DNA from: Candidatus Poribacteria bacterium
GTDB taxonomy: Bacteria; Poribacteria; WGA-4E; JAJDTR01
DNA length: 64,000 bases
NCBI GenBank assembly: GCA_965222225.1
Contig: CBDCTK010000002.1
Location: 5,184,001 to 5,248,000 of the forward strand
Direction: 5' to 3'
Part shown: piece after piece, positions 34,388 to 51,826 of the stretch
Numbering within the stretch: the first letter of the stretch is position 1
How the letters are laid out: every line of letters begins with the position of its first letter
Made by a program: the position numbers and the translations under genes
The notes under the pieces: generated by a model
The model's input: the letters and a program-made list of their open reading frames with translations, nothing else
Database searches by the model: none
Told to the model about the DNA's origin: nothing

Positions 34388-35511
34388 GCCCTGTGATTTA
34401 ATTGCAGGGCGGCACAAAGGCGAAACTTTGTTGGCCCCTGCACGGAAAATGAGAAAATGATGACAAAAACAATACAATTTGTGCTTCTCACGCTTGCCCT
34501 TGGCTTGGGAACGGAATCCTTCGTGAACGCCAAGGAAGTCAAGCTAGCCGGCGCCGAGGGAGGATCCGGAAATAGGCAGCTCGCTGTCGATATCGTGGCG
34601 GGGACAGTCATTGTAGGAGCGCACGCCGAAAACTACGCCAAAATATATGCCGCGAAAAACAATCGGTGGGAATTGCAAGCACAAGTCAGTGAGGCCGAAG
34701 GGAGTTACGGATGGGCAGTCGCCATTGGAAGTCTCCATTTGCGGGGTAACCCGCACGCTGCCATCGTAGGAGCCCCGAACAACAGCGACCGTGGCGACAG
34801 CGCGGGCGCTGCTTTTGTCTACGCCCCGAGCGGCGGCACATGGAAACAGCAGGGAAAACTCACCGCCGACGATGCTGCCGCTACAAACAATTTCGGACAC
34901 GCCGTCTCCATTGACGGAAATACTGCCATTGTTGGCTCGCCAAAAAGCGACGATGCCGGCAAAAACTCCGGGGCAGCCTATATCTTCGTCCGCGATGGCC
35001 CGACATGGAAACAGCAGGCGAAACTGCTCCCCAACGATCTGGGAGGATCGGATGCGTTCGGGGAGGATGTCTTTGTCTCCGGGCGCAGCCTATGTTTTCG
35101 TCCGCGAGGGAACGACGTGGGTACAAAAAGCCAAGCTTACTGCTGACGACGCGGCCAAGAGCGATCGGTTCGGACATTCGGTTGCCATGAGCGGCAACAG
35201 CATCATCGTCGGCGCGCCGCTGCACGATACCCCTGCCGGCAAAGATGCCGGGGTAGCCTATATCTTCGTCCCCCACGAGGACTCATGGAAGCAGCAGGCA
35301 ATGCTCATGCCGGCAAAGGCGGAAGCTTCCAATCAGCTCGGATTCGGTGTTGCTACCACGGGAAACATCGCAATCGTTGGCGCTCCAGCCCGTAATGAAG
35401 GGGCAAGAGCCGCAGGAGCGGCATATTCCTTTGTGCGTGTCGAAGGCATCTGGGAGGAGAAAGAAAAGGTTGTGCCCAAAGATGGCGCCAGGAAATTATA
35501 GAAATCCTTAA

Positions 35512-36384
35512 GAACCTGTTTGAAAAGTCATTTGACTCGGTTTCGCATCAAGTAAATGGAAGCGCTGTACACCATGGTCCCAGGAGTCTTAAGGATAGCG
35601 TTCATAATCCAAAGTCAATGGACGAAACCAGCCAAGCCAAGAAAATGTGCGTTCAACAATCCATCGTAACGGGACAACTTCAAACCCCTGCTGCCCTAGC
35701 GTAGATGCGATCTCCAGTTGACACTGATGAGCTAGATATAACCAGTCTTCTAATTCTCCGCGATAGGCAGCATCGGCACACACCAACTGAATTGTTATGT
35801 ACCAGCTAAACACTTCTGTTAGTAATTCAATAGCTATCTGATTGTCACTGACTTTGACTATCAATGGAACACCTATCGTATCAGTTACTAGATGTCGTTT
35901 GCGTCCTTTGACTCTCTTGTGACCATCAAATCCTCTAGTCGCCGCTAATTCCGTCGTCTTAACGGATTGGCTGTTGATGATAGCTGCTGTCGGTGATGGT
36001 TCTTTGCCAACATCACGACGTGTTTGTTCGTGAAGTGCCTGATGAATCAAGAGCCATGTATCGTCGGCGCTCCACTTTCTGAAATGGTAATAGACCGTTT
36101 GCCACGGTGGCATATCATGGGGTAGCGTTCGCCACTGACAGCCTGACTTGACAACATAAAAGATGGCGTTGATGATTAAATACATCTCCCACTTGAGAGG
36201 TCTGCCTAAGCGTTGAGCTGTTGGCAGAAACGATGACAGTTTCTCCCACTGTGCATCGGTCAAATCACTGGGATAACTCTTGCGGTTCATGTTTACTCCT
36301 TTCATTGGTTCAGAATGAACTGCTCCAATGAGTAAACGTAATCATCAACCCTTCAGACAACTTTCTTCTTTTTCAAACAGGATC
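35512..36384 (-). mobile_element. IS5-family (IS1031-like) element, degenerate
   Basis: TIRs GAACCTGTTTGAAAA / TTTTCAAACAGGATC; transposase ORF inside. Confidence 0.88.
35589..36290 (-). pseudogene. IS5 transposase, probably inactive
   Basis: YPSDLTDAQW, GCQWR, KGRKRH, RWIVERTF; first catalytic Asp reads N (IINSQSVK); small deletion and early stop. Confidence 0.8.
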
Positions 36385-36501
36385 TTAGCGCGATAAGATA
36401 AATTAAAAAATTGTGACATTATGTGACATTATGTGAGGAAATATGGCAATGGAAGCGTAAAGATTGCTGGTTTCTAACCGCCGCGGACAATGACATAGTT
36501 T

Positions 36502-36625
36502 GTAGGGTGCGATCAAAGGAATGAATAATGACTGCGATAGAGATCCCCTGCGCACCAGCCTTTGAAAGCGCCAGCAGCGATCGAGCGAGTGGATAACGAG
36601 TGCGATAGGGATCCCACAGGTATGT
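36502..36625 (+). repeat. REP allele carrying two 36-nt insertions
   Basis: Inserts 36512-36547 and 36580-36615 relative to the empty allele at 10087-10140. Confidence 0.85.
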
Positions 36626-37387
36626 AGCAGCCAACAATGAAAACATGAAAAAACTTTCTACAAATGACCAAAAATGGCTTTGCCACCGATTATTCAAACA
36701 GGCTCTAAGTTCGGTTCCTCAATTGCAATGAGCGACAACTCCGTTGTCATATCGTCCCACAATGCGGTGAATGAAGGCCCCGGATTTGCCAACGGTACCG
36801 CATTAGCGGTGACAACGCTTGGTCAAGTCAAGCGCACAGCGCTGTATCAAAACTTTCCGAACCCGTTTAACCCCGAAACATGGCTGCCTTATCGGTTGGC
36901 GTCGGATGCCCTGGTCACCCTTCGCATTTACAATGTCGGAGGGAAACTCGTGCGGGAGTTGGATCTCGGCGACCAAAGAGCGGGCGGCTACCTGACTCGC
37001 GAGACCGCCGCCTATTGGGATGGTCGGGACCAACGCGGTGAAGCCGTGTCAAGCGGTTTGTACGTTTACACCCTGCAAGCCGATGACTTCCGAGCCACGC
37101 GAAGAATGGTTATTTTGAAATAGATGAAGCGACTGAACAAAGATCAACAGACCGAATAGGATCAAATGAGATTAAGTGAACGAACAGTGGGCGCGATAGA
37201 ATATATTTGTAGGGTGGGCACTGCCCACCATTTCTCGTAGCGCTAGAGCTCCCAAAGAGATTCTCAACGCGTATAGCAACTTGAATAACCAAAAATGGTT
37301 CTGTCGCGATTATTTAACTGGGTTCATAAAAGCACATAGCCCGCACTGATTTCAGCAATTCAAACATAAATTAATAAGGAGATTTTG

Positions 37388-38977
37388 ATGAAAACGGCAT
37401 ATTTAGTATTGATTGGTCTGACTGTCGCCGTCGTATGGGCGTCCATCAGTTACACTGCCCTCGCTCAGAAAGATGTCAGGCTTGTCCCCGCCGACACGGG
37501 CGGCACCGATAATGATCCTGTGTCAATCGGTATCGGCACGAAGTACATCATCCTCGGCACACCGGGGAGTGCCCAAGACTTCGCCACAATCTTCGAGGGC
37601 GAAGGTGACAAGTGGAAGCAGACGGCACATCTCACGGGTGACGGCGGCGCGTTCGGGCAAGCTGTCGCTATCACCGATATCCGCGGACGAAGCAATACGG
37701 CATTTGCAATTGTCGGCGCACCAACCCACGACGGAGCCGGAGAAGCCCGAGTTTTTGCGCTCGGCGGAAGAGACTGGAACCCGCAGGCGAGACTCCGCGC
37801 CAGTGATGCGGCGGACGGAGACGCTTTCGGACATGCCGTCTCAATTAACGGCGACACCGCCCTCGTGGGTGCGCCGAAAGATGACGATGCGGGCAGCAAC
37901 TCCGGGGCGGTTTATGTCTTTGATCGTGTCGGCGCGCGCTGGAACCAACAAGCGAAACTTGTGGCGAAGGATGCCGCACCCTCCGCTGGATTCGGTGAAG
38001 CCGTCGCCCTATTTGGCAATACCGCTATCATAGGGGCACCACAGAGCGAGCATCGGGGCGTAAAGTTCGCAGGTGCGGCTTACGTGTTTGCGCGCGAAGG
38101 GAACAGATGGGTGGAGAAAACCAAACTCACGGCTGGCCATCCGGGCAAGGCGGACCGATTTGGGTTCGCCGTCGCTATCGGCGGGGACACCGTTGTCATC
38201 GTGGCGCCCTTGAAAGATACCGAGGGCGGACAAGATGCCGGCGCCGTCTACATTTTCGGGCGTGATGGGAACGCCTGGAGACAGCTTGCGAAAGTATTGG
38301 GGGAAGGCGGTTGGAAAGGCGACAAATTCGGAAACAGTGTGGCTACCAATGGAAACGTGGCAATTGTTGGGGCGCCTATCCGAGAAGAGGACGCATTTGC
38401 CTCGGGTGCCGCTTATGCCTTTGCACGTGTGGACGGAGTCTGGCAGGCAAAGGAGAAGGTCGTGCCCAAGGACGGATCCAAAGATCTTCACTTCGGTGCT
38501 TCGGTCGGGATAAATGAAAATACGGTGGCTATCGCTTCCCATCACAAAACCAAGTGCGCCGACTGCGGATGGCCGCACGGCGACGGCTCATCCGCCTATG
38601 TCTATAGCAGTATAGAAAGTTTCGGTACGCCGCCCTTCGCGGTCGAGCCGATTGATTTGAAAATAAATACGCTAGGGCGAGTAAAACGCACAGCGCTGTT
38701 CCAAAACTTCCCCAACCCCTTCAATCCGGAGACGTGGCTGCCGTATCAACTAGCTGCCGATGCCCCGGTAAACCTCCGCATCTATAACATCCGAGGTCAA
38801 TTGGTGCGAAAGTTGGATATCGGGGTACAAAAAGCCGGGAGCTATCGGGCACAAGAATCCGCCGCCTATTGGGATGGCAGCGATCAACTTGGCGAAAGCG
38901 TTTCCAGCGGCGTGTATTTCTACACGATGCAAGCCGGTGCGTTTCAAGCCACGCGCCGAATGCTTATTTTGAAATAG
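37388..38977 (+). CDS. FG-GAP beta-propeller protein 2 with FlgD-Ig/CTD-like tail
   Basis: Signal peptide; repeated FG.AV.I.G...VGAP; NFPNPFNPETW...TRRMLILK. Confidence 0.9.
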   Translation: MKTAYLVLIGLTVAVVWASISYTALAQKDVRLVPADTGGTDNDPVSIGIGTKYIILGTPGSAQDFATIFEGEGDKWKQTAHLTGDGGAFGQAVAITDIRGRSNTAFAIVGAPTHDGAGEARVFALGGRDWNPQARLRASDAADGDAFGHAVSINGDTALVGAPKDDDAGSNSGAVYVFDRVGARWNQQAKLVAKDAAPSAGFGEAVALFGNTAIIGAPQSEHRGVKFAGAAYVFAREGNRWVEKTKLTAGHPGKADRFGFAVAIGGDTVVIVAPLKDTEGGQDAGAVYIFGRDGNAWRQLAKVLGEGGWKGDKFGNSVATNGNVAIVGAPIREEDAFASGAAYAFARVDGVWQAKEKVVPKDGSKDLHFGASVGINENTVAIASHHKTKCADCGWPHGDGSSAYVYSSIESFGTPPFAVEPIDLKINTLGRVKRTALFQNFPNPFNPETWLPYQLAADAPVNLRIYNIRGQLVRKLDIGVQKAGSYRAQESAAYWDGSDQLGESVSSGVYFYTMQAGAFQATRRMLILK

Positions 38978-39167
38978 ATCAAGGAAGTGAATAACGACCG
39001 CGATAGCGTCCTCATAGCGCGCGCGATAGAAATCCTTTATAAGAGAAGAACAAACCTACAATATGGGAAGGCTCTATTTCCTACTCACCAGTTAACAACG
39101 AACAGAGACTACGCCAGCACGGACGCTGGCGACTAAAAATTCGCATAGACATAGAAGGGAATATATA

Positions 39168-40820
39168 ATGAGAAAAACGTTAACATCTCTCTTAATAGGT
39201 CTTACCCTCAGTATCGGTCTCGCACCTGTAAGCCACGCCGGAGTCGATAAACTCGTCGGCGCGGAAGAGGGGATTGACAATAAACATCTTGCGACGGATG
39301 TCAGCGGGGACATCCTCGCCATCGGTGCTTCCGGATCGGGCTACGTCAAAATCTACGTAAACGCCGGTGGAAATTGGAAAGAGCAGTGGCAACTCACAGC
39401 CCAAGAGCGAGTTGAACAAGAAGAGGCGCGTATTCCCGCCTTCGGATGGTCGGTCTCCCTTACGGGCGTCCACGAAATTGCCAGCGCGAACTACGCTATC
39501 GTTGGTGCGCCGACCGACACGCATCCTGAAAAAGGCGAGGGGGTCAATGAAGGTGGCGGCATTGCCGGCATCTTCGCCGCGGGAGAAAAAGGCGCCGCCT
39601 ATATTTTCCGCCGTACCGGAAACGAATGGCGACAACAGGTGAAGTTGATTGCTGAGGAACCCACAGATGACGATCGGTACGGCGAGTCTGTCTCTATTTT
39701 CCGAACCATGGCAATCATTGGCGTACCAAAAGACGATGATAACAAGAAGAACGAGGGTTCTGCCTACATTTATGTGCGCGAAGGTACTGATTGGCGTCAA
39801 CAAGCCAAAATTGTCCCCGATGGCCTTGGCGGCTCCGACGCGTTCGGAGAGGCCGTCGACATCCGCGAAAGCACAGCCGTGATCGGTGCACCGGCGCACA
39901 CACCCGGTGGAGTGAGATTCGCGGGCGCAGCGTATATCTACGTTCGCGAAGGGGAAACCTGGCGCCAACAAGCCAAACTCACAGCCAACGATGGTGCGAA
40001 AGCCGACCGTTTCGGTTCCTCTGTCGCTATTGGTAGTGGAACCGTAGTCATTGGTGCGCCGGCGCATGACACGGACAAAGGCAAGAATGCAGGAGCCGCC
40101 TATGTGTATGTGCGCGATGGAGATCGATGGAAACTGGAGGCGAAACTGACACCCGAAGTCGGAGAGAAGAACGATCAATTCGGATTTGGCGTCGACACCA
40201 ACGGTAATATCGTCATCATTGGAGCTAAAGGGCGCAGCGAACGCGCACCAGCCGCAGGGGCTGCCTATTCCTTTGTGCGAACCGATGGGCGCTGGGAAGA
40301 GAAGAAGAAGGTTCTTCCCGATGACCTAGAGCAAAAAATCAACTTCGGTGGTTCCGTTGCCATTAACGGCAATACCGTCGTCGTTGCGTCTCACAATGCA
40401 GGCAATGATGGCCCCGGATTTGGACACGGCACGGCGGTGCATGTTTACAGCAGTATAAAAGACTTCGACACACCGTCCTTCTCCGTTAATCCAACAGGAT
40501 TGAGAATTACATCACTTGGCAAGGTCAAACGCACGGCGCTGTTTCAGAACTTCCCCAATCCGTTTAACCCGGAAACTTGGCTGCCGTATCGCCTAGCCTC
40601 CGACTCGCCGGTTACCTTCCGCATCTACAATGCCCAAGGCCAGTTAATGCAGGAATTGGATCTCGGCACCCAAAAAGCTGCGGACTACCTGACTCGAGAA
40701 ACCGCCGCCTATTGGGACGGCAGAAACCGATTCGGAGAAACGGTGTCCAGCGGTGTCTATTTCTACACCCTTGAAGCCGGCTCTTACGAAGCCACTCGGC
40801 GGATGCTCATTTTGAAATAG
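39168..40820 (+). CDS. FG-GAP beta-propeller protein 3
   Basis: Same architecture as paralogue 2. Confidence 0.9.
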   Translation: MRKTLTSLLIGLTLSIGLAPVSHAGVDKLVGAEEGIDNKHLATDVSGDILAIGASGSGYVKIYVNAGGNWKEQWQLTAQERVEQEEARIPAFGWSVSLTGVHEIASANYAIVGAPTDTHPEKGEGVNEGGGIAGIFAAGEKGAAYIFRRTGNEWRQQVKLIAEEPTDDDRYGESVSIFRTMAIIGVPKDDDNKKNEGSAYIYVREGTDWRQQAKIVPDGLGGSDAFGEAVDIRESTAVIGAPAHTPGGVRFAGAAYIYVREGETWRQQAKLTANDGAKADRFGSSVAIGSGTVVIGAPAHDTDKGKNAGAAYVYVRDGDRWKLEAKLTPEVGEKNDQFGFGVDTNGNIVIIGAKGRSERAPAAGAAYSFVRTDGRWEEKKKVLPDDLEQKINFGGSVAINGNTVVVASHNAGNDGPGFGHGTAVHVYSSIKDFDTPSFSVNPTGLRITSLGKVKRTALFQNFPNPFNPETWLPYRLASDSPVTFRIYNAQGQLMQELDLGTQKAADYLTRETAAYWDGRNRFGETVSSGVYFYTLEAGSYEATRRMLILK

Positions 40821-41015
40821 CGCAAACGACAAACTCAAAGCGTGTGGGAGGTTCGGTATAGATGCGAATCTCCCACGCACTACCAGTTGCAGGACATAGA
40901 CGGCACAGTTCATGCCGCCGACTCGACATCGGGACTCGTGCCATTGATTAATTGTCATCGAAAACAAACGATTCCTGACCAATCTTCAAACAAAACAACT
41001 CGAAAGGAGCGTGCC

Positions 41016-42650
41016 ATGAAAAAAACGATACGATTTATCCTCATCACGCTTGCGCTCGGCATTGCATCGGCAACCGTAAATCATACGGCGCTGGCAAAAA
41101 AGGAAGTCAAGCTTATCGGCGTCGAGGAAGGAAACAACAACGAACATTTAACTTCAGACATTATTGGCGACTCCGTAATTATGGGAGCGCGTGGTGCGGG
41201 TGTTGCCACAGTCCACGTCTTTGACGGAAAATCTTGGAAAAAACAGGGGGATCTGCTTGCCAGCGATCCCGACAATGATAGAGCTGCCAGACCGTCTTAC
41301 AGCCATTCAGTCGCTATCGGGGCGCCCCACGAGTTTGCTGCTGCAAACTTCGCCATTATCGGTGCGCCGCGACACCTGCATGGAGGGGAACCGGCGCTTG
41401 CGGGCAAAGGGGGATTTGGTGCAGCATATATCTTCCGCCGCGGCGGAACGAAATGGAAACAGCAAATAAAGCTCGTAGCGCCAGACCCGATGCTCGACGA
41501 CCGGTTCGGCGAGGCTGTTGGCATCTACCGGAACACCGCCGTGGTTGGAGCATCGAAAGACGACGATCAGGGCAAAAACTCGGGTTCGGTCTTCGTCTAC
41601 GTATTCGATGAGGAATCGTGGAAACCACAAGCAAAGATAGTTCCCGACGATCTCGTCGGATCAGACGCTTTCGGAGAAGCGGTATCGTTAGATGAAAGCA
41701 CCCTCGCCATCGGAGCGCCGGGGCACACGCATAGTGGAGTAAGATTCGCTGGCGCCGTCTACATCTTTGTACGTGAGAACGATAAATGGGTACAGCAAGC
41801 CAAACTCACTCCCGATGACCCCGGAAAGTCTGCTCAGTTCGGGAGTTGTATATCACTCAGCTTCAACACGGTCGTCGTTGGAGCCCCGCTGCACGACACC
41901 GAGCGCGGTAAGGATGCGGGAGCGGCTTACATCTTCGTGCGCAACGGCGAAAGATGGACGCAACAGGCAAGATTGACTTCCAGCGACACGAAAGCCGGAG
42001 ATCGATTCGGTACGGGCGTTGCCACTACTGGAAAGAGCGCCATCATCGGCGCTCCGTTTAGACCTGAAGGCGCTCCGGGATCAGGCGCAGCTTATTCCTT
42101 TATAAGCGTTGACGGGAAATGGGAAGAGAAGGAGAAAATCACCCCTGACGACGCGGGACAAAAAATCAATTACGGACTTTGGATTGCCATGAGCGGCAAC
42201 ATGGTTATTGTTTCGTCTTATGCCGCCCCAAATGAAGGCGGCGCGGAAAAGGGGATTGGCACTGCGGCTTACATCTATAATAGCGTTGACGATTTTGGTG
42301 TTTTGCCTTACGCTGTCGAAGCGTTCGGCATGAGCTTAACAACGCTGGGGAGTGTAAAGCGGACAGCCCTGCTTCAGAATTTCCCCAACCCGTTCAATCC
42401 GGAAACGTGGATGCCGTATCGCCTAGCAACCGACACGCCGGTTACCTTCCGCATATACAATAACCGAGGTCAATTGATGCGGGAGTTGGATCTCGGTCTC
42501 CAAAAAGCCGCGGACTACCTGACACGAGAAACCGCTGCCTATTGGGACGGCAGAAACCGGTTCGGAGAAACGGTGTCCAGCGGCGTCTACTTCTATAGAA
42601 TTGAAGCCGGATCTTACGAAGCCACCCGGCGGATGCTTATTTTGAAGTAA
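41016..42650 (+). CDS. FG-GAP beta-propeller protein 4
   Basis: Same architecture; ATG after AAGGAG. Confidence 0.9.
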   Translation: MKKTIRFILITLALGIASATVNHTALAKKEVKLIGVEEGNNNEHLTSDIIGDSVIMGARGAGVATVHVFDGKSWKKQGDLLASDPDNDRAARPSYSHSVAIGAPHEFAAANFAIIGAPRHLHGGEPALAGKGGFGAAYIFRRGGTKWKQQIKLVAPDPMLDDRFGEAVGIYRNTAVVGASKDDDQGKNSGSVFVYVFDEESWKPQAKIVPDDLVGSDAFGEAVSLDESTLAIGAPGHTHSGVRFAGAVYIFVRENDKWVQQAKLTPDDPGKSAQFGSCISLSFNTVVVGAPLHDTERGKDAGAAYIFVRNGERWTQQARLTSSDTKAGDRFGTGVATTGKSAIIGAPFRPEGAPGSGAAYSFISVDGKWEEKEKITPDDAGQKINYGLWIAMSGNMVIVSSYAAPNEGGAEKGIGTAAYIYNSVDDFGVLPYAVEAFGMSLTTLGSVKRTALLQNFPNPFNPETWMPYRLATDTPVTFRIYNNRGQLMRELDLGLQKAADYLTRETAAYWDGRNRFGETVSSGVYFYRIEAGSYEATRRMLILK

Positions 42651-42791: not shown

Positions 42792-44438
42792 ATGGGAAAA
42801 ACCGTACGATTCATCCTCATCACTCTTGCGCTCGGCATTGTATCGGCAACCATAAATCATACCGCGCTGGCAAAAAAGGAAGTCAAGCTTATCGGTGTCG
42901 AGGAGGGCGTTAACCACGAGCATTTGACCGCGGACATAATCGGGGACACCGTCATTATCGCGTCACGCGGCGCAGGAACCGCCACAATTTACGTCAATGA
43001 CGGCAAAGTTTGGAAAAAGCAGGAGGACCTGCAAGCCCGTGACCACAATGCTCGAGATCCGTATGTTCCCGGCTTCGCTTATTCAGTCGCTATCGGGGCA
43101 CCTCATGAGTTTGCTACTCCAAACTTCGCCATTATCGGCGCGCCAAAACACTTGCATGGAGGAGACAACCTCAAAGGGCTGGACGGGCCCGCGGGATTTG
43201 GCGCCGCCTATATCTTCCGACGCAGTGGAAAGACCTGGAAGGAACATGTCAGACTTGTTGCCCCGGATCCCGTGGATGACGACCGATACGGCGAGTCTGT
43301 TGCCATCTACAGAACCACAGCCGTGGTTGGGGCGTCGAAAGACGACGATAATGGCAAAAACTCGGGTTCCGTCTTCGTCTATGTTCTAGACGGCGCCACG
43401 AATACGTGGAAACCCCAAGCAAAAATAGTTCCCGACGATTTAGGCGGGTCAGACGCTTTCGGAGAAACGGTATCGTTGGATGAAAATACCCTTGCTGTCG
43501 GAGCGCCGGGTCACACCCACAGCGGAGTGAGATTCGCCGGCGCCGTCTACGTCTTTGTTCGCAACGGAGATAAATGGGAACAACAAGCGAAACTCACTCC
43601 CGATGACCCCGGCAAGGCTTCGAAGTTCGGGAGCGCAATATCGCTCAGCTTCAACACGCTCGTTGTTGGAGCCCCTCTGCACGACACCGAGCGCGGCAGA
43701 GATGCCGGTGCGGCTTACATCTTCGTACGCAACGGCGACAGATGGAATCAGCAGGCGAAATTGATTGCCAAAGACACAAAGGAGAAAGACCGATTCGGTA
43801 CGGGCGTCGCCACCACCGGCAAGAGCGCCATAATCGGGGCTCCGTTTCGACCTGAAGGCGCGCCGGGATCAGGCGCCGCCTATTCCTTTGTAAGCGTTGA
43901 TGGGAAATGGGGGGAGAAGGTGAAAGTCACCCCCGACGATGCCGGACAAAAGATTAATTACGGGCTCTGGGTCGCCATGAGCGGCAACATGGTCATTGTT
44001 TCGTCTTATGCCGCCGCGAACGAAGGCGGCGCCGAAAAAGGAATCGGCACTGCGGCTTACGTTTATAATAGCGTAGACGATTTCGGAGCGTTCCCCTACG
44101 CCGTCGAACCGTTCGGCATGAACCTAACAACGCTTGGGAGTGTAAAAAGAACAGCGCTGCTTCAAAATTTCCCCAACCCGTTTAATCCGGAAACGTGGAT
44201 GCCGTATCGCTTGGCGTCGGATGTCCCGGTGTCGATTCAGATTTTCAACGTAAAAGGACAACTGCTACGGGAACTGAATCTCGGAGAACAGAAAGCGGGC
44301 AGCTATCTAACCCGAGACACCGCCGCTCATTGGGATGGAAGAGATCAGGTTGGAGAAACTGTTTCCAGCGGCGTCTATTTTTATGCCCTGCATGCCGGTG
44401 CATTCCAAGCCACCCGGCGCATGCTCATTTTGAAGTAG
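42792..44438 (+). CDS. FG-GAP beta-propeller protein 5
   Basis: Same architecture; body very similar to paralogue 4. Confidence 0.9.
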   Translation: MGKTVRFILITLALGIVSATINHTALAKKEVKLIGVEEGVNHEHLTADIIGDTVIIASRGAGTATIYVNDGKVWKKQEDLQARDHNARDPYVPGFAYSVAIGAPHEFATPNFAIIGAPKHLHGGDNLKGLDGPAGFGAAYIFRRSGKTWKEHVRLVAPDPVDDDRYGESVAIYRTTAVVGASKDDDNGKNSGSVFVYVLDGATNTWKPQAKIVPDDLGGSDAFGETVSLDENTLAVGAPGHTHSGVRFAGAVYVFVRNGDKWEQQAKLTPDDPGKASKFGSAISLSFNTLVVGAPLHDTERGRDAGAAYIFVRNGDRWNQQAKLIAKDTKEKDRFGTGVATTGKSAIIGAPFRPEGAPGSGAAYSFVSVDGKWGEKVKVTPDDAGQKINYGLWVAMSGNMVIVSSYAAANEGGAEKGIGTAAYVYNSVDDFGAFPYAVEPFGMNLTTLGSVKRTALLQNFPNPFNPETWMPYRLASDVPVSIQIFNVKGQLLRELNLGEQKAGSYLTRDTAAHWDGRDQVGETVSSGVYFYALHAGAFQATRRMLILK

Positions 44439-44615
44439 GATCAAGCGAATGGATAATGAGCGCGATAGAGATCCAAAGGCGATAGAAGATCCTGATAGAG
44501 ATTCCTCAAGCGAATGGCTAGAACGACGTAAATCAACCGAACGAATAGTGAGGGCGATACCGCGTTCATAACGACCAATCAACTGAGCGCTTAACGAAGG
44601 CGATAGGAGATTCTG
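44439..44615 (+). repeat. Cluster of 36-nt elements directly after a stop codon
   Basis: Copies near 44439, 44532 and 44577 plus fragments. Confidence 0.7.
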
Positions 44616-44884: not shown

Positions 44885-46513
44885 ATGAAAGTCATACGGT
44901 TTATCGTCATCAGCTTGTTGCTCAATTTCCTGTTCACGGCGACAGGCCAAACTGCAGGAAAGGAAATCAAGTTGATTGGTGTCGAAGATGGGTCGAACAA
45001 CAATCATCTGTCCGCAGATGTCATTGGTGACTCGGTAATCGTCGGCGCGCGAGGAGGAGGTCTCGCGAAACTCTATGTGGGCGCCGGCGAGAAATGGAAA
45101 CTGGTAGCTGAGCTCATTGCCAAAGATGCAAATCAGCGGGATCCGGCTGTACCCGCCTTTGGATGGGCGGTCTCGCTTGCTGCTCCCCATGAACGCGCCA
45201 GCGCAAACTATGCCGTCATTGGAGCGCCAAAAGACCTTCATGGCGGTGACAACGAAGAAGGAATATTCGGCCATCAAGGATTCGGCGCCGTTTATACCTT
45301 CGCTCCTAGCCGAGGTACGTGGAAGCAGCAGCATAAGATTATCGCCCCAGATCCGAAAGAGAAAGATCAGTTTGGTTTCGCTGTCTCAATCGAAAGAGGT
45401 ACCATGGTGATCGGTGCACCGGGAGAAGACGGCGCAGCCAAGGACGGGGGCGCCGCCTATGTCTTTGTACGCGATGGAGAGGAATGGAAACAGAGTGCGA
45501 AAATCATCCCCGAGGATTTGGGTGGATTGGACGCTTTCGGCGAGTGTGCTGTGCTTCGCGGGAACACCGTTGTCATCGGGGCGCCTGGGCACACGCATGG
45601 CGGAATCAGATTTACCGGTGCCGCTTACGTCTTTGTGCGCAACGGGGACACGTGGGAGCAACAGGCGAAGCTGACAGCCAATGACGCCGGCAAAGCCGAC
45701 CGGTTCGGTCATTCTGTCGCTATGGCTGGAGAGACCATCATTGTGGGTTCGCCCTTGAACGATACTGTTGGCGGAAAAGACACCGGCGCCGCCTATGTCT
45801 TTGTCCGCGATGGCGACAGGTGGAATCAGCAAGCGAAGCTAGTCGCACAAGGCTTACGAGCGAAGGATCAGTTCGGATTCGGGGTTGCCACTACGGGCAG
45901 CATAGCCGTTGTGGGCGCGCCGTTGCGCCATGAGCGCGCGCCTGCGGCGGGCGCCGCTTATTCTTTCGTGAGAGTTAATGGCGATTGGGAGGAGAAAAAG
46001 AAGGTTGTCCTCGACGACGAAAGGCAAAAACTCAATTTCGGCACATGGGTCGCCATGAGCGGCAATACCGTCGTCGTCTCGGCGCATAACGACACCAACG
46101 ATGGGCCGGGTTGGGGAAACGGCACGGCAGCGTTTGTATACAGTAGTGTAGAAGATTTCGGAACGCCGCCGTTTGCTGTTGATCCGTATGGATTGGCGCT
46201 GACGACCTTTGGTAGGGTTAGGAATACCGCGTTGCTTCAGAACTATCCCAATCCGTTCAACCCGGAAACGTGGATGCCGTACCAATTGGCGGCTGATGCC
46301 CCGGTCGCCATCAACATCTTCAACGTTCAAGGGCAACTGATTCGGGAGTTGAATCTCGGCGCACAAAAAGCGGGCACCTATCTGAGCAGAGACACCGCCG
46401 CCTATTGGGACGGTCGAGACCAGCTAGGACAGACCGTTTCCAGCGGGGTTTATTTCTACTCTATGCAGGCGGACACATTTCGTGCGACGCGGAGAATGTT
46501 CATCTTAAAATAG
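44885..46513 (+). CDS. FG-GAP beta-propeller protein 6
   Basis: Same architecture. Confidence 0.9.
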   Translation: MKVIRFIVISLLLNFLFTATGQTAGKEIKLIGVEDGSNNNHLSADVIGDSVIVGARGGGLAKLYVGAGEKWKLVAELIAKDANQRDPAVPAFGWAVSLAAPHERASANYAVIGAPKDLHGGDNEEGIFGHQGFGAVYTFAPSRGTWKQQHKIIAPDPKEKDQFGFAVSIERGTMVIGAPGEDGAAKDGGAAYVFVRDGEEWKQSAKIIPEDLGGLDAFGECAVLRGNTVVIGAPGHTHGGIRFTGAAYVFVRNGDTWEQQAKLTANDAGKADRFGHSVAMAGETIIVGSPLNDTVGGKDTGAAYVFVRDGDRWNQQAKLVAQGLRAKDQFGFGVATTGSIAVVGAPLRHERAPAAGAAYSFVRVNGDWEEKKKVVLDDERQKLNFGTWVAMSGNTVVVSAHNDTNDGPGWGNGTAAFVYSSVEDFGTPPFAVDPYGLALTTFGRVRNTALLQNYPNPFNPETWMPYQLAADAPVAINIFNVQGQLIRELNLGAQKAGTYLSRDTAAYWDGRDQLGQTVSSGVYFYSMQADTFRATRRMFILK

Positions 46514-46642: not shown

Positions 46643-48247
46643 ATGAAAATGTGTATAAGATTTGTCCTTATCAGTCTGATGATTGTCACTATGTCGGCGA
46701 ACATCAGTCACGCTGGCGAATTCAAACTTGTCGCTGCCGAGGATGGTACGAGAAACAGCCACATGACGGCTGACATTATCGGTGATACTCTGATTGTTGG
46801 AGTACACGAGGGGTTTGGTTTAGCCAAAATCTATGTTGGTTCCGGAAAAAAGTGGAAAGTGCAGGCAGAACTCTCCGCTCTTGAAGGCGGTGGAGACGAA
46901 AACAGAGGCGTCCCCGGATTCGGATGGTCGGTCGCACTTACCGCTCCGCATGAGTTTGCTAGCGCGGACTATGCCCTAATCGGAGCAGCAAGGGACCATG
47001 CTGCCGGAGCATTATCTGGCTCAGCCTATATCTTCGCTCGCAATCGGACGACATGGAAGGAACAGGCGAAACTCATTGGCGGAGATACAGCCAAAGAGGA
47101 CAATTTCGGCTGGGCGGTGGCTATTGACAGGAACACTGCAGTCATTGGCGCTCCCGGCGACGACGACGCCGGAAGCAGCTCGGGTGCAGCCTTTGTCTTT
47201 GAATTCGAACGCATAAAATGGAAAGAGAAAGCGAAACTCATTCCCAAGGATTTAGACCGATCAGCCGCTCTCGGAACTTCGGTCTTGGTTCAAAAGGACA
47301 CGATCATCGTCGGGGCGCCAAGGCACACGCATAGCGGTGTCAGGTTCACCGGCGCCGCCTTCGTCTTTCGACGCGACGGAGACAAGTGGGTCGAACATAC
47401 CATGCTCACCGCCGATGACGCCGCTAAAAGTGACAGTTTCGGTACTTCGATTGCCATAAGCGGCGACACGGTTGTCGTAGGCGCGCCATTAGCCGATACG
47501 GACAGAGGAAAAGATGCTGGCGCCGCCTATGTCTTCGTTCGCGATGCCGGTGGATGGAAACAGCAGGCGAAACTGGGTTCCAGCGATGCAAAGAAAGCCG
47601 ATCAGTTCGGATCTAGTGTCGCCATTGAGGGAAACAACGTCATCGTTGGCGCCAAAACTCGCGACGAGGGCGAACCGGGCTCGGGCGCCGCATATTCATT
47701 TGTGCGTTCGAACGGGGTATGGGAGCAGAAACAGAAAGTCGCACCCGATGACCCCGGGCAAAAGATTAATTACGGTACTTGGGTCGCTGTGAGCGGCAAC
47801 ACCGTCATTGTCTCGGCACATAACGGGCCGAACGATGGCCCCGAATGGGGTAAAGGCGCCACGGTTCACATCTATAACGGCATTGAAGATTTCGACGCAG
47901 TACCCTACTCAGTCGAGCCGTTCGGTTTGGCTGTGACAACTTTCGGGAAGATTAGGCGTACAGCGCTGCTTCAGAATTTTCCCAATCCCTTCAACCCGGA
48001 GACATGGCTGCCGTATCGATTGGCGGCTGATGCTCCCGTGACCCTCCACATCTACAATGTCCGAGGACAACAGATAAGAGAACTCGATCTCGGCGTACAA
48101 AAGGCGGGAGGCTATCTAAACCGAGAAACCGCCGCTTATTGGGATGGTAGAGACAATGTCGGACAGACCGTTTCCAGTGGAGTCTACTTCTACAGTCTAC
48201 AGGCAGACACATTCCGTGCAACGCGCAGAATGCTTATTTTGAAGTAG
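46643..48247 (+). CDS. FG-GAP beta-propeller protein 7
   Basis: Same architecture. Confidence 0.9.
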   Translation: MKMCIRFVLISLMIVTMSANISHAGEFKLVAAEDGTRNSHMTADIIGDTLIVGVHEGFGLAKIYVGSGKKWKVQAELSALEGGGDENRGVPGFGWSVALTAPHEFASADYALIGAARDHAAGALSGSAYIFARNRTTWKEQAKLIGGDTAKEDNFGWAVAIDRNTAVIGAPGDDDAGSSSGAAFVFEFERIKWKEKAKLIPKDLDRSAALGTSVLVQKDTIIVGAPRHTHSGVRFTGAAFVFRRDGDKWVEHTMLTADDAAKSDSFGTSIAISGDTVVVGAPLADTDRGKDAGAAYVFVRDAGGWKQQAKLGSSDAKKADQFGSSVAIEGNNVIVGAKTRDEGEPGSGAAYSFVRSNGVWEQKQKVAPDDPGQKINYGTWVAVSGNTVIVSAHNGPNDGPEWGKGATVHIYNGIEDFDAVPYSVEPFGLAVTTFGKIRRTALLQNFPNPFNPETWLPYRLAADAPVTLHIYNVRGQQIRELDLGVQKAGGYLNRETAAYWDGRDNVGQTVSSGVYFYSLQADTFRATRRMLILK

Positions 48248-48448
48248 ATCAAGCTAGTGGATAGCGAGTAGAATGCTCTATCGGAGTTCTATCGCACTCC
48301 TTATTCATTCGCTCGATCCCTCCTTATTCAGTCGGTTGATCGATTGCGATCTTTCTTGCCCCGCCTTGGATAGAATTGACTTGCACCATTAATGCACCGC
48401 ACAGTTCCTGTTTTTTTGCGTAAGTCCTGAAAATAGAGGGAGATCACC

Positions 48449-50053
48449 ATGACAAAAATGTTGCAATCCGTCTTCAGTTGTCTAATGCTCTGCATCCTGT
48501 TCGCTGCCGTAGGTAATGCCGCCGGATTCAAGTTGGTTGCCGTTGAGGAGGGGACCAGAAATGGCCATCTAACGTCCGATATTAATGGGGACACCATAAT
48601 CATTGGAGCGCATGCGGGTTTCGGCATGGCAAAAATCTACGTTGGGAGTGGCACAAAATGGAAAGAACAGGCTGAACTTACCGTGAAGCCCGTCGGTGGA
48701 GACGTGGAAAGGAGCATTCCCGCTTTCGGATGGGCTGTCGCTCTTACGGGCCCCCATGAGTTGGCTAGTCCCGACTATGCAGTTATCGGGGCGGCAAGGG
48801 CCGGAGCAGATCAATCGCTGGCTGGAGCGGCATATATTTTCGTCCGCAACCGTAACCAATGGAACGAACAAGCGAAACTGGTCGGCGCGGATGTGGCGCC
48901 AGCCGACAGTTTTGGACATGCGGTCTCCATTGAAAGGGAGGTTGCCGTCATTGGTTCGCCCGGCGATGATGATGCCGGTAGCAGCTCGGGTTCGGCATAT
49001 ATCTTCGTCCGCAACGGAACCGAATGGAAACAGCAGGTTAAGCTCGCTCCGGCAGATCTACAACGCTCGGACGCCTTCGGAAGTGCCGTTCTAGTCTATA
49101 GGAACACCATCATTGTCGGGGCGCCGAAACATACGCATAGCGGTGTTAGATTCACCGGCGCGGCTTACGTGTTTGAACGCAACGGGGACACTTGGGTACA
49201 AGAGACCAAACTCGCAGCCGACGATTCCGCCCCGAGCGACAATTTCGGAGCTTCTCTTGCGATGAGCGGAAACACCATCATCGTTGGCGCGCCGTTAACT
49301 GACACCGACCGTGGAAAAGATACCGGTGCAGCCTATGTTTTCGTCCGAGAGGGCGGAGGGTGGCGGCAGCAGGCAAAACTCGGTTCCGGCGACGCAAAGA
49401 AAGCCGATCAGTTTGGGTCTGGTGTTGCCACAAGTGGAAGTATCGTCATCGTTGGCGCCAAAACTCGTGATGCAGGTGGACCGGGATCAGGGGCGACATA
49501 TTCCTTCGTGCGGGTTAACGGACGCTGGGAGGAGCGGGAAAAGGTCTTGCCTAGAGATTCGGGGCAAAAGATCAACTACGGGGAATGGGTCGCAATAAGA
49601 GGCAACACCGTCATAGTTTCCGCGCACAACGCACCCAATGACGGGCCCGAATCAGCCCACGGCGCCGTGGTGTACGTTTACGATAGCGTCAAAGATTTCA
49701 ACACGCCGCCATTCGCTGTCGTGCCCTCTGACTTGAGCGTAACAACACTGGGACAGATCAAGCGCACGGCGCTGCTTCAGAACTTCCCCAATCCGTTTAA
49801 CCCGGAGACCTGGCTGCCGTACCGCTTGGCGAACGACGCCGATGTCAAAATTCGCATCTACGATGTCCGTGGGAGTTTAACGCGCGAGTTAAATCTCGGG
49901 ACGCAAACATCGGGCGAATACCTGACACGAAAAACAGCCGCCTATTGGGACGGTAGAAACCAATTCGGTGAGACCGTATCGAGTGGCATTCACTATTACA
50001 CATTGCGTGCTGGCTCGTTCCAAGCCACGCGGAGAATGTTGGTCGTGAAATAG
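48449..50053 (+). CDS. FG-GAP beta-propeller protein 8
   Basis: Same architecture. Confidence 0.9.
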   Translation: MTKMLQSVFSCLMLCILFAAVGNAAGFKLVAVEEGTRNGHLTSDINGDTIIIGAHAGFGMAKIYVGSGTKWKEQAELTVKPVGGDVERSIPAFGWAVALTGPHELASPDYAVIGAARAGADQSLAGAAYIFVRNRNQWNEQAKLVGADVAPADSFGHAVSIEREVAVIGSPGDDDAGSSSGSAYIFVRNGTEWKQQVKLAPADLQRSDAFGSAVLVYRNTIIVGAPKHTHSGVRFTGAAYVFERNGDTWVQETKLAADDSAPSDNFGASLAMSGNTIIVGAPLTDTDRGKDTGAAYVFVREGGGWRQQAKLGSGDAKKADQFGSGVATSGSIVIVGAKTRDAGGPGSGATYSFVRVNGRWEEREKVLPRDSGQKINYGEWVAIRGNTVIVSAHNAPNDGPESAHGAVVYVYDSVKDFNTPPFAVVPSDLSVTTLGQIKRTALLQNFPNPFNPETWLPYRLANDADVKIRIYDVRGSLTRELNLGTQTSGEYLTRKTAAYWDGRNQFGETVSSGIHYYTLRAGSFQATRRMLVVK

Positions 50054-50251
50054 TATTAACGCACTTCGGTTGGTGTTAACGTATTATGCCACACCTCCGT
50101 CCTGTAGAAGGGAATCTACTTTACGATAGGTTTTTGGCGAAACTTTCGTTCATCAAATCAGAGATACTCACCAAACACTCATTTATTTGCGGTCAAAGAC
50201 AAACATTTGTTGCATCTTCCTGACATCGACAAACATCGAGAGGAGATTTCC

Positions 50252-51826
50252 TTGAAACACTTAAAGTTAATTCTAGCCGCTCTAATCCTTGGTATTGGCC
50301 TAGCAACCTTCACTCACACCGCTTTGGCGCAAAAGGGCATCAAGCTGATTGCAGACGAGGACAACGACATCGGATCTCAACTGTCCGCCGCTATAAGCGA
50401 AAACTCTGTGATTGTTGGATCAATTTCTGAAAACACTGTGACAGTGTTTGCATTCGATGGAAAAAACTGGGCAAAACAAGCGGAACTAATCCCTCGAGAC
50501 GAGGGCAGTGTCGGATGGTCGGTCGCCATCAGCGGCGACAGCCTGATCATCGGCGTTCCTCATGACGATGCTGGCGCCGAAACCTCAGGCTCAGCATTTA
50601 TTTTTGTTCGGAAGGGCCAAAACTGGGATCAGCGAGCGAAACTGGGCACCGACGACCCGACAAAAGCGGACAATTTCGGATATTCTGTAGCGATTGACAG
50701 GAATACCGCCATTGTTGGTGTCCCGAGGGACGATGACGCGGGCAAAGACTCCGGATCAGCCTACGTATTCTTCCGCGAGGGGGCAGCGTGGAGGAAGCAG
50801 GCGAAGCTAGTTGGCTCGGATCTGGCGGGTGGAGACGCCTTCGGCGAATCTGTCTTCTTCCATGGCAACACGGCTGTCGTCGGTGCGAATGGACATACAC
50901 ATAGTGGCGCGAGATTTGCCGGCGCAGCTTACGTTTTCGTGCGTAGTGGAGATCGGTGGACAGAAAAAGCCAAACTCGTAGCTGCCGATGCCGCGAAAGC
51001 CGACCGTTTCGGAAGTTCGGTTAGCATGAGCGGAAAGACCATTGTTGTCGGGGTGCCGTTTCATGACACTGAACGCGGAACCGATGCGGGAGCCGCCTAT
51101 GTCTTTGCGCTTGACGGAGCAGCTTGGAAATTTCAAGCCAAGCTCACGCCTAACAAATCAAAGAAAAACCTTAAGTTCGGATTTGGCGTTGCCACCACTG
51201 GAAGAATTGTCATTGTTGGGGCACCAGGGCACGACGATCCGGCGAGAGGTTCAGGCGCCGCCTATTCCTTCGTACGCACCGAAGGTGTTTGGGCAGAAAA
51301 AGCTACTGTCGTACCGGAGGACGGCGCCAAAGATTTACACTTCGGCTCCGCGATCTCCATGAGCGAGAACGCGGTTGCTGTCGCGTCCCATAGTGGGCCA
51401 TTTTTGAACCACGACGGAAAACCCAACGGCGATGGCCACGCCGCATATATCTATAGTAGTATCGAGGATTTTGGAACGCCGCCGTTTGCTGTTGATCCGT
51501 TTGGATTGAGAGTGACGACGCTAGCTCAAGTTAAGCGGACAGCGCTCCTTCAGAATTTTCCCAATCCGTTTAACCCGGAAACCTGGATTCCGTATCGCTT
51601 GGGTGCTGACTCCGACGTTACACTTAGCATTTACAATGTCCAAGGGCAACTCATGCGACAATTAAATCTAGGTGAACAAACCGCCGGTGAGTATTCTACG
51701 CGAGAACGCGCTGCCTATTGGGATGGACGCAATAGTCGGGGTGAACACGTGTCAAACGGAATCTATTTCTATCAATTGTCCACTCCAACCTTCGATCGGA
51801 CGAAACGGATGGTAATTGTAAAATAG
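50252..51826 (+). CDS. FG-GAP beta-propeller protein 9
   Basis: Same architecture; TTG start after GAGGAG. Confidence 0.9.
   Translation: MKHLKLILAALILGIGLATFTHTALAQKGIKLIADEDNDIGSQLSAAISENSVIVGSISENTVTVFAFDGKNWAKQAELIPRDEGSVGWSVAISGDSLIIGVPHDDAGAETSGSAFIFVRKGQNWDQRAKLGTDDPTKADNFGYSVAIDRNTAIVGVPRDDDAGKDSGSAYVFFREGAAWRKQAKLVGSDLAGGDAFGESVFFHGNTAVVGANGHTHSGARFAGAAYVFVRSGDRWTEKAKLVAADAAKADRFGSSVSMSGKTIVVGVPFHDTERGTDAGAAYVFALDGAAWKFQAKLTPNKSKKNLKFGFGVATTGRIVIVGAPGHDDPARGSGAAYSFVRTEGVWAEKATVVPEDGAKDLHFGSAISMSENAVAVASHSGPFLNHDGKPNGDGHAAYIYSSIEDFGTPPFAVDPFGLRVTTLAQVKRTALLQNFPNPFNPETWIPYRLGADSDVTLSIYNVQGQLMRQLNLGEQTAGEYSTRERAAYWDGRNSRGEHVSNGIYFYQLSTPTFDRTKRMVIVK

What the first reader, a model, noticed from the sequence alone, without database searches (positions are those of the whole stretch)
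34457..51826. Nine-gene tandem array of integrin-like FG-GAP propellers with CDR-like variable loops
Seen: nine co-oriented paralogues share one scaffold. Divergence concentrates in the loop after the second-blade GAP (THDGAG; TDTHPEKGEGVNEGGGIAGIFAAGEKG; RHLHGGEPALAGKGGFG; KDLHGGDNEEGIFGHQGFG; RDHAAGALSG) and in the last-blade loop (HHKTKCADCGWPHGDG; HNAGNDGPGFGHG; YAAPNEGGAEKGIG; HSGPFLNHDGKPNGDG). The central H(T)xxG.RF.GA loop is nearly invariant. Inference: a diversified secreted receptor or adhesin repertoire, for host-matrix or ligand recognition, evolving by birth and death.
Basis: partly seen in the sequence, partly recalled or inferred. Interest (0 to 1): 0.8.

Follow-up and report, generated by a model that had tools for sequence, protein, structure and literature searches.

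The report
Old, stable panel of surface propellers
Eight intact genes and one broken gene in a Poribacteria genome (likely a sponge symbiont) encode predicted propeller-shaped proteins that are likely exported to the cell surface; their distinctive loops differ between the genes but stay nearly fixed across related species, so they likely form an old, stable panel of binding proteins rather than an antibody-like, fast-changing repertoire.

Summary
The array is real, but it holds 8 intact genes plus 1 pseudogene (frameshift, IS5 insertion, deletion). Each intact gene encodes a signal peptide, a seven-bladed FG-GAP_2 propeller (pLDDT 92; nearest solved fold integrin-alpha, Z 37) and a type-IX-secretion-like tail. 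No blade (0 of 63) has the integrin calcium loop. Divergence between paralogues does cluster in the top-face loops of blades 7, 1 and 2 (identity 0.27 against 0.51).

The 'CDR-like' reading fails. The same gene order recurs in 9 of 9 congeneric species. Among orthologues the loops are under purifying selection (dN/dS 0.115 and 0.039; scaffold 0.125; dS 0.5-0.8). Turnover is slow: one g2 duplication, some losses, and exchange confined to the C-terminal half. The family has 20-34 matches per genome in this genus and none in another Poribacteria genus (0 of 24).

Best reading: an old panel of surface binding proteins with distinct, fixed specificities, likely exported by a divergent type IX route. 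No ligand is shown. The scan found no look-alike of this DNA before, but noted a similar, calcium-type array in Cloacimonadota and this genome's SprA. New member of a known kind; moderate interest.

The parts
34457..35491 (+). g1 pseudogene, 5' part: signal peptide and blades 1-6 in two frames (frameshifting deletion near 35080)
   Evidence: PF14312 in both fragments; 82-84% DNA identity to the intact orthologue of G005
35507..36709 (-). IS5-family element inserted in g1; transposase ORF 35589-36305
   Evidence: DUF4096 + DDE_Tnp_1; 95% identical copy elsewhere in the genome; an RNA-library contig of another study joins g1 across this site without the IS (X19 record 24)
36707..37123 (+). g1 pseudogene, 3' part: blade 7 remnant, 63-nt deletion, C-terminal sorting-type domain
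37385..38977 (+). g2, 530 aa; short, variable blade-2 loop; blade-7 loop with CxxC in 13 of 13 orthologues
   Evidence: model
39168..40820 (+). g3, 550 aa; longest blade-2 loop (26-27 aa), nearly fixed in 10 orthologues
41016..42650 (+). g4, 544 aa from the likely start (the listed ORF begins at 40842)
42792..44438 (+). g5, 548 aa; closest pair with g4 (78%)
44885..46513 (+). g6, 542 aa; propeller modelled at pLDDT 92
45227..45283 (+). g6 blade-2 top (2-3) loop, V1: paralogue-specific, identical in 8 of 10 orthologues
45584..45616 (+). g6 blade-4 top loop with the conserved His-x-His and Arg-Phe
46085..46123 (+). g6 blade-7 top (2-3) loop, V2: paralogue-specific, strongly constrained
46172..46222 (+). 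g6 17-residue linker that matches the free C-terminal tail of many other proteins of this genome
46226..46510 (+). g6 C-terminal FlgD-Ig / T9SS type A sorting-type domain
   Evidence: (TIGR04183 24.9 bits, cut-off 23)
46643..48247 (+). g7, 534 aa
48449..50053 (+). g8, 534 aa
50252..51826 (+). g9, 524 aa from the likely start (the listed ORF begins at 50207); most divergent member

Best explanation
The array encodes eight intact paralogous proteins with a predicted seven-bladed propeller that are likely exported by a divergent type-IX-like route and likely act as a fixed panel of surface binding proteins (adhesins or lectins), each with its own ligand site built from the top-face loops of blades 7, 1 and 2. 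Steps: (1) Sec export via an N-terminal signal peptide (seen in the sequence; no predictor run). (2) Outer-membrane passage via the C-terminal sorting domain, a SprA-like pore and PorV-like shuttles, then cleavage or anchoring by PorU-like sortases (domain and genes shown; their use inferred from Bacteroidota). (3) Display of the propeller, with the conserved His/Arg/Phe loop of blade 4 as a shared element and the blade 7-1-2 loops giving specificity (divergence pattern shown; binding inferred). (4) The loops diverged after old duplications and were then held by purifying selection, while exchange between neighbours touches only the C-terminal half and tail (shown). The ligands are most likely stable features of the sponge matrix, such as glycans or matrix proteins (inferred; untested).
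For: Fold: AlphaFold pLDDT 92.2, pTM 0.92, 7 x 4 strands. Best matches are integrin alpha chains, Z 37.4, rmsd 3.1 over 345 residues, 18% identity (same family tops). Sector: between-paralogue identity is 0.27 in the top loops of blades 7-1-2 against 0.51 in the other top loops, while within-orthogroup identity is 0.88 in both. Selection among orthologues: V1 dN/dS 0.115 (CI 0.072-0.162), V2 0.039 (0.021-0.062), scaffold 0.125; flanking genes 0.07-0.17. Between g4 and g5 the sector has dN 0.32 against 0.12 elsewhere. All nine orthogroups are monophyletic on the N-terminal half (support 0.98-1.0). None of the 65 paralogue-nearest windows (of 4365) starts before residue 226. Export: TIGR04183 over cut-off in 3 of 3 tested; SprA-like gene in 31 of 31 Poribacteria genomes; 3 of 3 tested barrels pass PorV_fam, two PorU-like proteins score 403 and 408 bits (cut-off 420), and one lies directly before a PorV-like gene. 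No strictly invariant polar residue points to a catalytic site. Near-identical contigs occur in RNA libraries of three studies, one labelled sponge metagenome.
Against: No ligand or binding was tested. No motor or ring genes were found (GldM, GldN, PorP: 0 matches, but the controls did not ring either), and SprA and PorU score below their family cut-offs. One Poribacteria genus lacks FG-GAP_2 repeats altogether (0 of 24 genomes), so the family is not needed by all Poribacteria. The one FG-GAP-containing sponge-symbiont protein tested in print (CAD42, cadherin + FG-GAP) changed neither removal by nor retention in the sponge (PMC13747020, passages). Copies are lost or broken in several genomes. 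The g4/g5 contrast is inflated by exchange in the C-terminal half. Loop faces come from strand topology, not from measured coordinates. RNA contigs may include DNA.
Confidence: 0.55

Rival explanations
1. The proteins are structural subunits of a surface coat or of a hetero-oligomer; the paralogue-specific loops are fixed because they form subunit-subunit contacts, not ligand sites.
For: Fixed gene order and one-to-one retention in 9 of 9 congeners. The integrin propeller's FG-GAP face also contacts a partner subunit (PMC3192720, Introduction, says the propeller stabilises the beta subunit; the face is my own knowledge). Strong constraint on V2.
Against: Single members are broken, lost, fused (the G004 g8 carries a g9 tail) or doubled without loss of the rest. 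A further 14 intact paralogues lie in six other loci of this genome, and the count varies from 20 to 34 matches across the genus.
Confidence: 0.15
2. The His-rich top face binds a metal ion or small molecule (scavenging or catalysis), in line with the neighbouring MntR/ZnuA ABC transporter and CusCBA-like efflux genes.
For: Conserved His at blade 1 (71 of 82), blade 4 (75 and 74 of 82) and blade 7 (His 59, Tyr 23 of 82). CxxC with His in 13 of 13 g2. Metal-transport neighbours in the window.
Against: None of these His is invariant; invariant columns are mostly Gly/Trp/Pro-type scaffold positions. The sample of 82 leans to g3-g7-like proteins. The metal genes are not next to the array in G008 or to the related cluster in G010. 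The sector has only 2-5 His per paralogue and is mainly Gly- and acid-rich.
Confidence: 0.12
3. Paralogue loop differences are neutral leftovers of old duplications; the copies are functionally redundant and kept for dosage.
For: Surface loops tolerate indels in most propellers (own knowledge). Within g4, g5 and g9 the sector evolves 1.6-2 times faster than the rest. Losses occur.
Against: Long, unrelated loops (up to 27 aa) are nearly fixed within orthogroups. V2 is more constrained than the scaffold (0.039 against 0.125, intervals do not overlap). Exchange between neighbours never reaches blades 1-3, although low similarity there could itself block exchange.
Confidence: 0.1
4. One reading: a CDR-like repertoire under ongoing diversifying selection (arms race with phage or host immunity).
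For: Divergence sits on one sector. The g2 blade-2 loop varies among species (dN/dS 0.48 with indels; 10 variants in 13 copies), and g2 is doubled in 5 of 9 congeners.
Against: No region reaches dN/dS near 1 among orthologues. Loops are often identical across species, for example g4 V2 in 9 of 9 and the g6 blade-1/2 link in 10 of 10. Database orthologues show the same loop classes. No reverse transcriptase or site-specific recombinase among the 44 proteins scanned (43 of the window plus one orthologue), only IS transposases. One weak inverted repeat.
Confidence: 0.07

Closest known systems
Pfam FG-GAP_2 (PF14312) repeat proteins, including NCBI-named 'T9SS type A sorting domain-containing protein [Candidatus Poribacteria bacterium]'
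   Same: Same repeat (222-247 bits) and same PF14312 + PF13860 architecture as most of the 120 listed relatives. The Atlas's nearest clusters are FG-GAP_2 (0.96).
   Different: Single-propeller form expanded to 20-34 matches per genome in one genus. Several other Poribacteria have one 14-repeat protein of about 935 aa or none. No member has a tested function in the papers my searches returned.
Integrin alpha-subunit propeller, and bacterial integrin-type propellers of Chouhan et al. 2011 (PMC3192720; parts 1-2 of 7 and passages read)
   Same: Seven four-stranded blades, N-terminal strand closing blade 7, FG in 49 of 63 and GxP in 36 of 63 blades; best structural matches are integrin alpha chains.
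   Different: No DxDxDG calcium loop (0 of 63) and no aromatic-aromatic-Gly-aromatic cage (0 of 63); blade 1 lacks FG in 9 of 9; no thigh/calf or transmembrane part; 17-20% identity. Chouhan's bacterial examples have a calcium site in every blade.
Type IX secretion (T9SS) type A cargo of Bacteroidota (PMC10994853, passages read)
   Same: Signal peptide plus C-terminal beta-sandwich tail over the TIGR04183 cut-off; terminal Lys invariant in 47 of 47; SprA-, PorV- and PorU-like genes in the genome.
   Different: Outside Bacteroidota; SprA and PorU below cut-off; no motor or ring found (inconclusive). An extra 17-residue Poribacteria tail motif precedes the domain. Kamke et al. 2014 (PMC3909097, passages and supplement hits) saw such tails in Poribacteria but found no structural genes of the system.
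Eukaryote-like proteins (ELPs) of sponge symbionts (ankyrin, TPR, NHL, cadherin/FG-GAP; PMC13747020, passages read)
   Same: Secreted repeat proteins with an animal-like fold, expanded in a likely sponge symbiont.
   Different: The tested FG-GAP-containing ELP CAD42 had no effect on phagocytosis escape, so that role is not supported for this repeat class. The architecture also differs (no cadherin).

Membership tests
Pfam FG-GAP_2 (PF14312) | Score over the curated cut-off with tandem repeats | tested here: met
   8 of 8 intact genes at 222-247 bits, cut-off 23, 5-6 stretches each
Integrin-type propeller (Chouhan 2011) | Seven four-stranded blades, last strand of blade 7 from the N-terminus | tested here: met
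   Model pLDDT 92, pTM 0.92; Z 37.4, rmsd 3.1, 345 aligned to integrin alpha-M
Integrin-type propeller (Chouhan 2011) | [quoted passage not shown] | tested here: not met
   FG 49 of 63, GxP 36 of 63, strict cage 0 of 63; blade 1 lacks FG in 9 of 9
Integrin-type propeller (Chouhan 2011) | DxDxDG-like calcium loop between strands 1 and 2 | tested here: not met
   0 of 63 blades; the loop is 2-3 residues except in blade 2
Integrin alpha subunit | Thigh/calf domains, transmembrane helix, beta-subunit partner | tested here: not met
   The propeller is followed only by a linker and a roughly 95-aa sorting-type domain; a partner was not searched for
T9SS type A cargo | N-terminal Sec signal peptide | tested here: met
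   Basic, hydrophobic, Ala-x-Ala-type N-termini seen in 8 of 8; no lipobox in 9 of 9; by inspection, no predictor run
T9SS type A cargo | C-terminal domain over the TIGR04183 cut-off | tested here: met
   3 of 3 tested (g2 27.6, g6 24.9, g9 33.4 bits; cut-off 23); the other five were not scanned against NCBIfam
T9SS type A cargo | SprA translocon, PorV shuttle and PorU sortase in the genome | tested here: inconclusive
   PorV_fam over cut-off in 3 of 3; SprA-like 161 of 200 bits, 2139 aa, present in 31 of 31 genomes; PorU-like 403 and 408 of 420 bits
T9SS type A cargo | GldLM motor and GldKN ring | tested here: inconclusive
   GldM, GldN, PorP: no match in G000 (95% complete), but controls did not ring; GldL and GldK not searched
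T9SS type A cargo | Tail bound by PorV, cleaved, protein on the surface | not testable with these tools
   The complex predictor was not available; localisation needs experiments
CDR-like or antigenically variable repertoire | Loops hypervariable among strains or species, dN/dS near or above 1 | tested here: not met
   V1 0.115, V2 0.039; highest single value g2 V1 0.48; tested between species only, strain-level DNA reads not obtained
CDR-like or antigenically variable repertoire | Diversifying machinery (reverse transcriptase, invertase, silent cassettes) or loop shuffling | tested here: not met
   None among 44 proteins scanned, 43 of them from the window; exchange windows never start in blades 1-3; rest of the genome not searched for such enzymes

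The most novel reading that the evidence does not exclude
One genus of sponge Poribacteria has built a fixed 'code' of 20-30 calcium-free integrin-like surface receptors. Each reads a different host matrix or cell ligand with the same face and sector, one of them (g1) displaying an RGDS loop that could engage sponge integrins, and all are exported by a motor-less relative of type IX secretion. That would give a ready-made, expressible panel for finding which sponge molecules symbionts recognise.
Probability: 0.2. Interest if true: 0.68.

Novelty: new member of a known kind. Interest (0 to 1): 0.36.

Why it matters
How uncultured sponge symbionts recognise and hold their place in the host is open, and most eukaryote-like proteins have no known ligand. 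This array gives nine orthologous groups with well-predicted folds, loops mapped to one sector, and a natural control (the same loops fixed across ten species). Ligand screens and loop swaps become straightforward. It also supplies cargo for the export route that Kamke et al. 2014 left unexplained in Poribacteria. It does not show a new diversification mechanism: the pattern is the familiar 'constant but different' outcome of old gene duplication.

Tried and rejected
CDR-like diversification: rejected between species. Integrin-type calcium binding: no motif. Lipoprotein anchoring: no lipobox. RNA elements: no Rfam match in the window. Inversion or cassette switching: one weak inverted repeat only. 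Promoter and terminator scans were not clearly above shuffles (20 against 14.1+/-3.6; 30 against 22.5+/-4.4), so the good-looking site at 34359-34387 is not claimed.

RGD mimicry: g1 has RGD in 8 of 9 intact orthologues, but the Gly fits the repeat consensus and RGD occurs in 22 of 120 database relatives, mostly elsewhere in the blade; kept as a lead only. Linkage to metal genes: not kept in all genomes. A profile of the free C-terminal tails did not reach the array linkers at 8 bits; only a matrix ignoring the Lys and Trp positions did. The background for that test included the array proteins themselves.

Strain-level DNA variation was not obtained. A second Foldseek run on the better model got no answer. 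Sequence search of the PDB gave only weak integrin and FlgD hits (E 3e-5 or worse). Runs with small word shares (X18, X20) and with none (X21-X24) were not used. RNA contig depths were not used to rank genes. Podell et al. 2019 was not held, and supplement files 11-12 of Kamke 2014 could not be searched; either might mention this family or the export genes.
Full report
WHAT IS THERE. Between 34457 and 51826 lie nine co-oriented paralogous units. Eight are intact open frames of 524-550 aa from their likely starts (g2-g9). The first (g1) is a pseudogene. Against the intact orthologue of G005 it shows a frameshifting deletion near 35080, an IS5-family insertion of about 1.2 kb and a 63-nt deletion. 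A contig from an RNA library of another study joins g1 across the insertion site without the IS, so the insertion looks strain-specific. Each intact protein has a signal-peptide-like N-terminus (by inspection; no lipobox), FG-GAP_2 repeats (222-247 bits in 8 of 8), a linker and a FlgD-Ig domain. That domain passes the TIGR04183 cut-off in 3 of 3 tested. A 79%-identical relative of g6 is named Ca. Poribacteria, as are most of the 70 loci. Near-identical contigs occur in RNA libraries of three studies, one labelled sponge metagenome; these may contain DNA and do not prove transcription.

FOLD. With an 82-sequence alignment AlphaFold gives the g6 propeller pLDDT 92.2 and pTM 0.92: seven four-stranded blades, with an N-terminal strand closing blade 7. 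The best matches among 48,161 solved chains are integrin alpha subunits (Z 37.4, rmsd 3.1, 345 aligned, 18% identity); CylK scores 33.6 and WD40 proteins about 31 or less. The full-length g2 model (pLDDT 71) also ranks integrins first. By the criteria of Chouhan et al. 2011 (PMC3192720; parts 1-2 of 7 and passages) these are not integrin-type propellers in the strict sense. The DxDxDG calcium loop is in 0 of 63 blades, the aromatic cage in 0 of 63, FG in 49 and GxP in 36. The fold is integrin-like; membership of that family fails.

WHERE THE PARALOGUES DIFFER. I assigned loops to faces from the model's strands (4-1 and 2-3 loops on the FG-GAP face, 1-2 and 3-4 loops opposite). Five of the seven length-variable loops fall on the FG-GAP face of blades 7, 1 and 2. 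The exceptions are the blade-2 1-2 loop and a two-residue insertion in blade 3 of g5. Between-paralogue identity is 0.27 in that sector, 0.51 in the other top loops and 0.56 in strands. The blade-4 loop keeps His, His, Arg and Phe in 75, 74, 81 and 78 of 82 aligned relatives, but it is no more conserved between paralogues than the blade-5 loop (0.65 and 0.66).

ARE THE LOOPS CDR-LIKE? No. I fetched the matching stretch from all 9 congeneric species and one sister-genus genome. The order g1-g9 recurs in all nine (split over two contigs in G006), with full-length orthologues 76-98% identical. The upstream cohesin-domain gene was found in 8 of 9 and the downstream 228-aa gene in 7 of 9. Of 110 family ORFs, I analysed the 85 of at least 500 aa from the genus; 22 shorter or split ORFs and 3 sister-genus genes were left out. 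Every orthogroup is monophyletic in the protein tree (g5 with only 0.44 support) and in a DNA tree of the N-terminal half (0.98-1.0). Within orthogroups the loops are about as conserved as the scaffold: V1 0.83, V2 0.95, scaffold 0.88, against 0.13, 0.37 and 0.53 between paralogues. Pooled pairwise dN/dS (Nei-Gojobori, pairs not independent, indels not counted) is 0.115 for V1 (bootstrap 0.072-0.162), 0.039 for V2 (0.021-0.062), 0.125 for the scaffold and 0.142 for the tail, at dS 0.5-0.8. Three flanking genes give 0.07-0.17 at dS 0.50-0.73. The 73 single-propeller database relatives show the same discrete loop classes. Against this reading: the g2 V1 loop varies (dN/dS 0.48, 10 variants in 13 copies), and within g4, g5 and g9 the sector evolves 1.6-2 times faster than the rest, while in g1, g3, g6 and g7 it evolves more slowly. 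Averages cannot exclude single selected sites, and strain-level DNA reads were not obtained.

TURNOVER. It is slow but real. g2 is doubled in 5 of 9 congeners; four full-length second copies form one clade with a near-fixed longer V1. g9 is missing from the stretch in G004 and G009; in G004 g8 carries a g9-type tail, which fits a fusion. Split copies occur in G003, G006, G007 and G009, some possibly assembly errors. In 65 of 4365 sequence-windows (14 of 85 genes) the nearest neighbour is a paralogue. All start at residue 226 or later, mostly between neighbours g3/g4, g4/g5 and g8/g9, so blades 1-3 are never exchanged (trees). Between g4 and g5 the sector has dN 0.32 against 0.12 elsewhere, inflated by that exchange. 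The genome holds 22 intact members in 7 loci. A blade-7 profile gives 20-34 matches per genome in the genus and 10 in the sister genus (matches are not exact copy numbers). FG-GAP_2 repeats were found in 57 of 81 genomes of the order, and in 0 of 24 of one genus. Four of five named Poribacteria genomes have their 14 repeats in one open frame of about 935 aa.

EXPORT. Kamke et al. 2014 (PMC3909097, passages; supplement hits) reported TIGR04183 tails on Poribacteria repeat proteins but found no structural genes of the system. Here G000 has a 2139-aa SprA-like protein (TIGR04189 161 bits, cut-off 200), three tested barrels over the PorV_fam cut-off, and two PorU-like C25 proteins (403 and 408 bits, cut-off 420), one directly before a PorV-like gene. 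The SprA-like and PorV-like genes are in 31 of 31 genomes searched. GldM, GldN and PorP were not found, but the controls were silent too. In Flavobacterium the type A tail binds PorV inside SprA and a motor extracts the cargo (PMC10994853, passages); that the same happens here is inferred. The complex predictor was not available. In 22 of 22 intact members the 17-residue stretch that best matches the free C-terminal tail of about 110 other proteins of this genome is the linker just before the sorting domain.

MECHANISM AND RIVALS. The best fit is an old panel of surface binding proteins: duplication, divergence of one sector of the FG-GAP face, then long purifying selection on each paralogue's loops (0.55). 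Fixed loops point to stable ligands such as host matrix glycans or proteins rather than an arms race; this step is inference. Rivals are a structural coat or hetero-oligomer (0.15), metal or small-molecule binding by the His-rich face (0.12), neutral redundancy (0.10) and ongoing CDR-like diversification (0.07). The only FG-GAP-containing sponge-symbiont protein tested in the papers found, CAD42, had no effect on removal by the sponge (PMC13747020, passages), which counts against a simple anti-phagocytosis role.

NOVELTY. The repeat, the architecture and tandem expansion of secreted propellers are known kinds. Nine literature searches (listings, plus passages of six papers: PMC13747020, PMC3909097, PMC8546597, PMC3192720, PMC7313196, PMC10994853) returned no description of this array, of the genus-level expansion, or of Poribacteria export genes. 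Podell et al. 2019 was not held and subscription papers are not covered. The scan's earlier notes hold no look-alike of this DNA, but describe a calcium-type nine-gene array in Cloacimonadota and this genome's SprA and a junction tail. I had found the SprA-like gene before seeing that note. Verdict: real, partly misread, new member of a known kind, interest 0.36.

Noticed in passing
window 34457-35146 (g1 blade-2 loop) and orthologues in L021, L024, L025, L028, L032, L034, L036, L037: g1 carries an RGDS stretch in its top-face loop in 8 of 9 intact orthologues and in the pseudogene. It may be chance, since the Gly fits the repeat consensus and RGD occurs in 22 of 120 relatives.
   Followed up: partly
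window 38465-38689 (g2 blade-7 loop): A His-His...CxxC...His loop is conserved in 13 of 13 g2 copies and is unique to g2 in the array; it could be a disulfide or a metal site.
   Followed up: no
G000 genome-wide; window examples 31406-32512 and 15173-19028: About 110 proteins end in a free 17-residue Val-x-Pro...Lys...Trp-Gly-x-Ile-Lys tail; the same motif, with Leu/Phe for Trp, precedes the sorting domain in 22 of 22 propeller genes.
   Followed up: partly
L116:7611-14027, L117:8919-9854, L118:8115-9200, L119:5043-11282, L120:6539-13935: SprA-like, PorV-like (13 matches in G000) and PorU-like genes; no motor found. Kamke 2014 reported no such structural genes.
   Followed up: partly
window 15173-19028: Four tandem Laminin_G_3 (concanavalin-like) genes on the minus strand, next to a BNR-repeat gene: a second small array of likely secreted binding proteins.
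   Followed up: no
window 26068-31310 and 54592-61392: An MntR/DtxR + ZnuA ABC transporter lies upstream, and His-rich proteins with OEP/HlyD efflux parts lie downstream; the linkage is broken in some genomes.
   Followed up: partly
window 32923-33930: A 335-aa ORF with no Pfam or NCBIfam match and paralogues elsewhere in the genome (54% identity); found before the array in G000 and G009 but not listed there for G001, G002, G003 or G007, so possibly mobile.
   Followed up: no
window 36503-36710, 37142-37240, 38977-39032, 44439-44566: A short dispersed intergenic repeat with dozens of copies in the genome; it also sits beside the IS5 element and between array genes.
   Followed up: no
window 53150-53868: An IS1-family element (two overlapping ORFs) with a 99-100% identical copy elsewhere in the genome.
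   Followed up: no
L027 (G004 g8) and L031-L032 (G006): The G004 g8 has a g9-type tail, consistent with a fusion that removed g9. G006 has the array on two contigs with many frameshifted copies, possibly an assembly artefact.
   Followed up: partly
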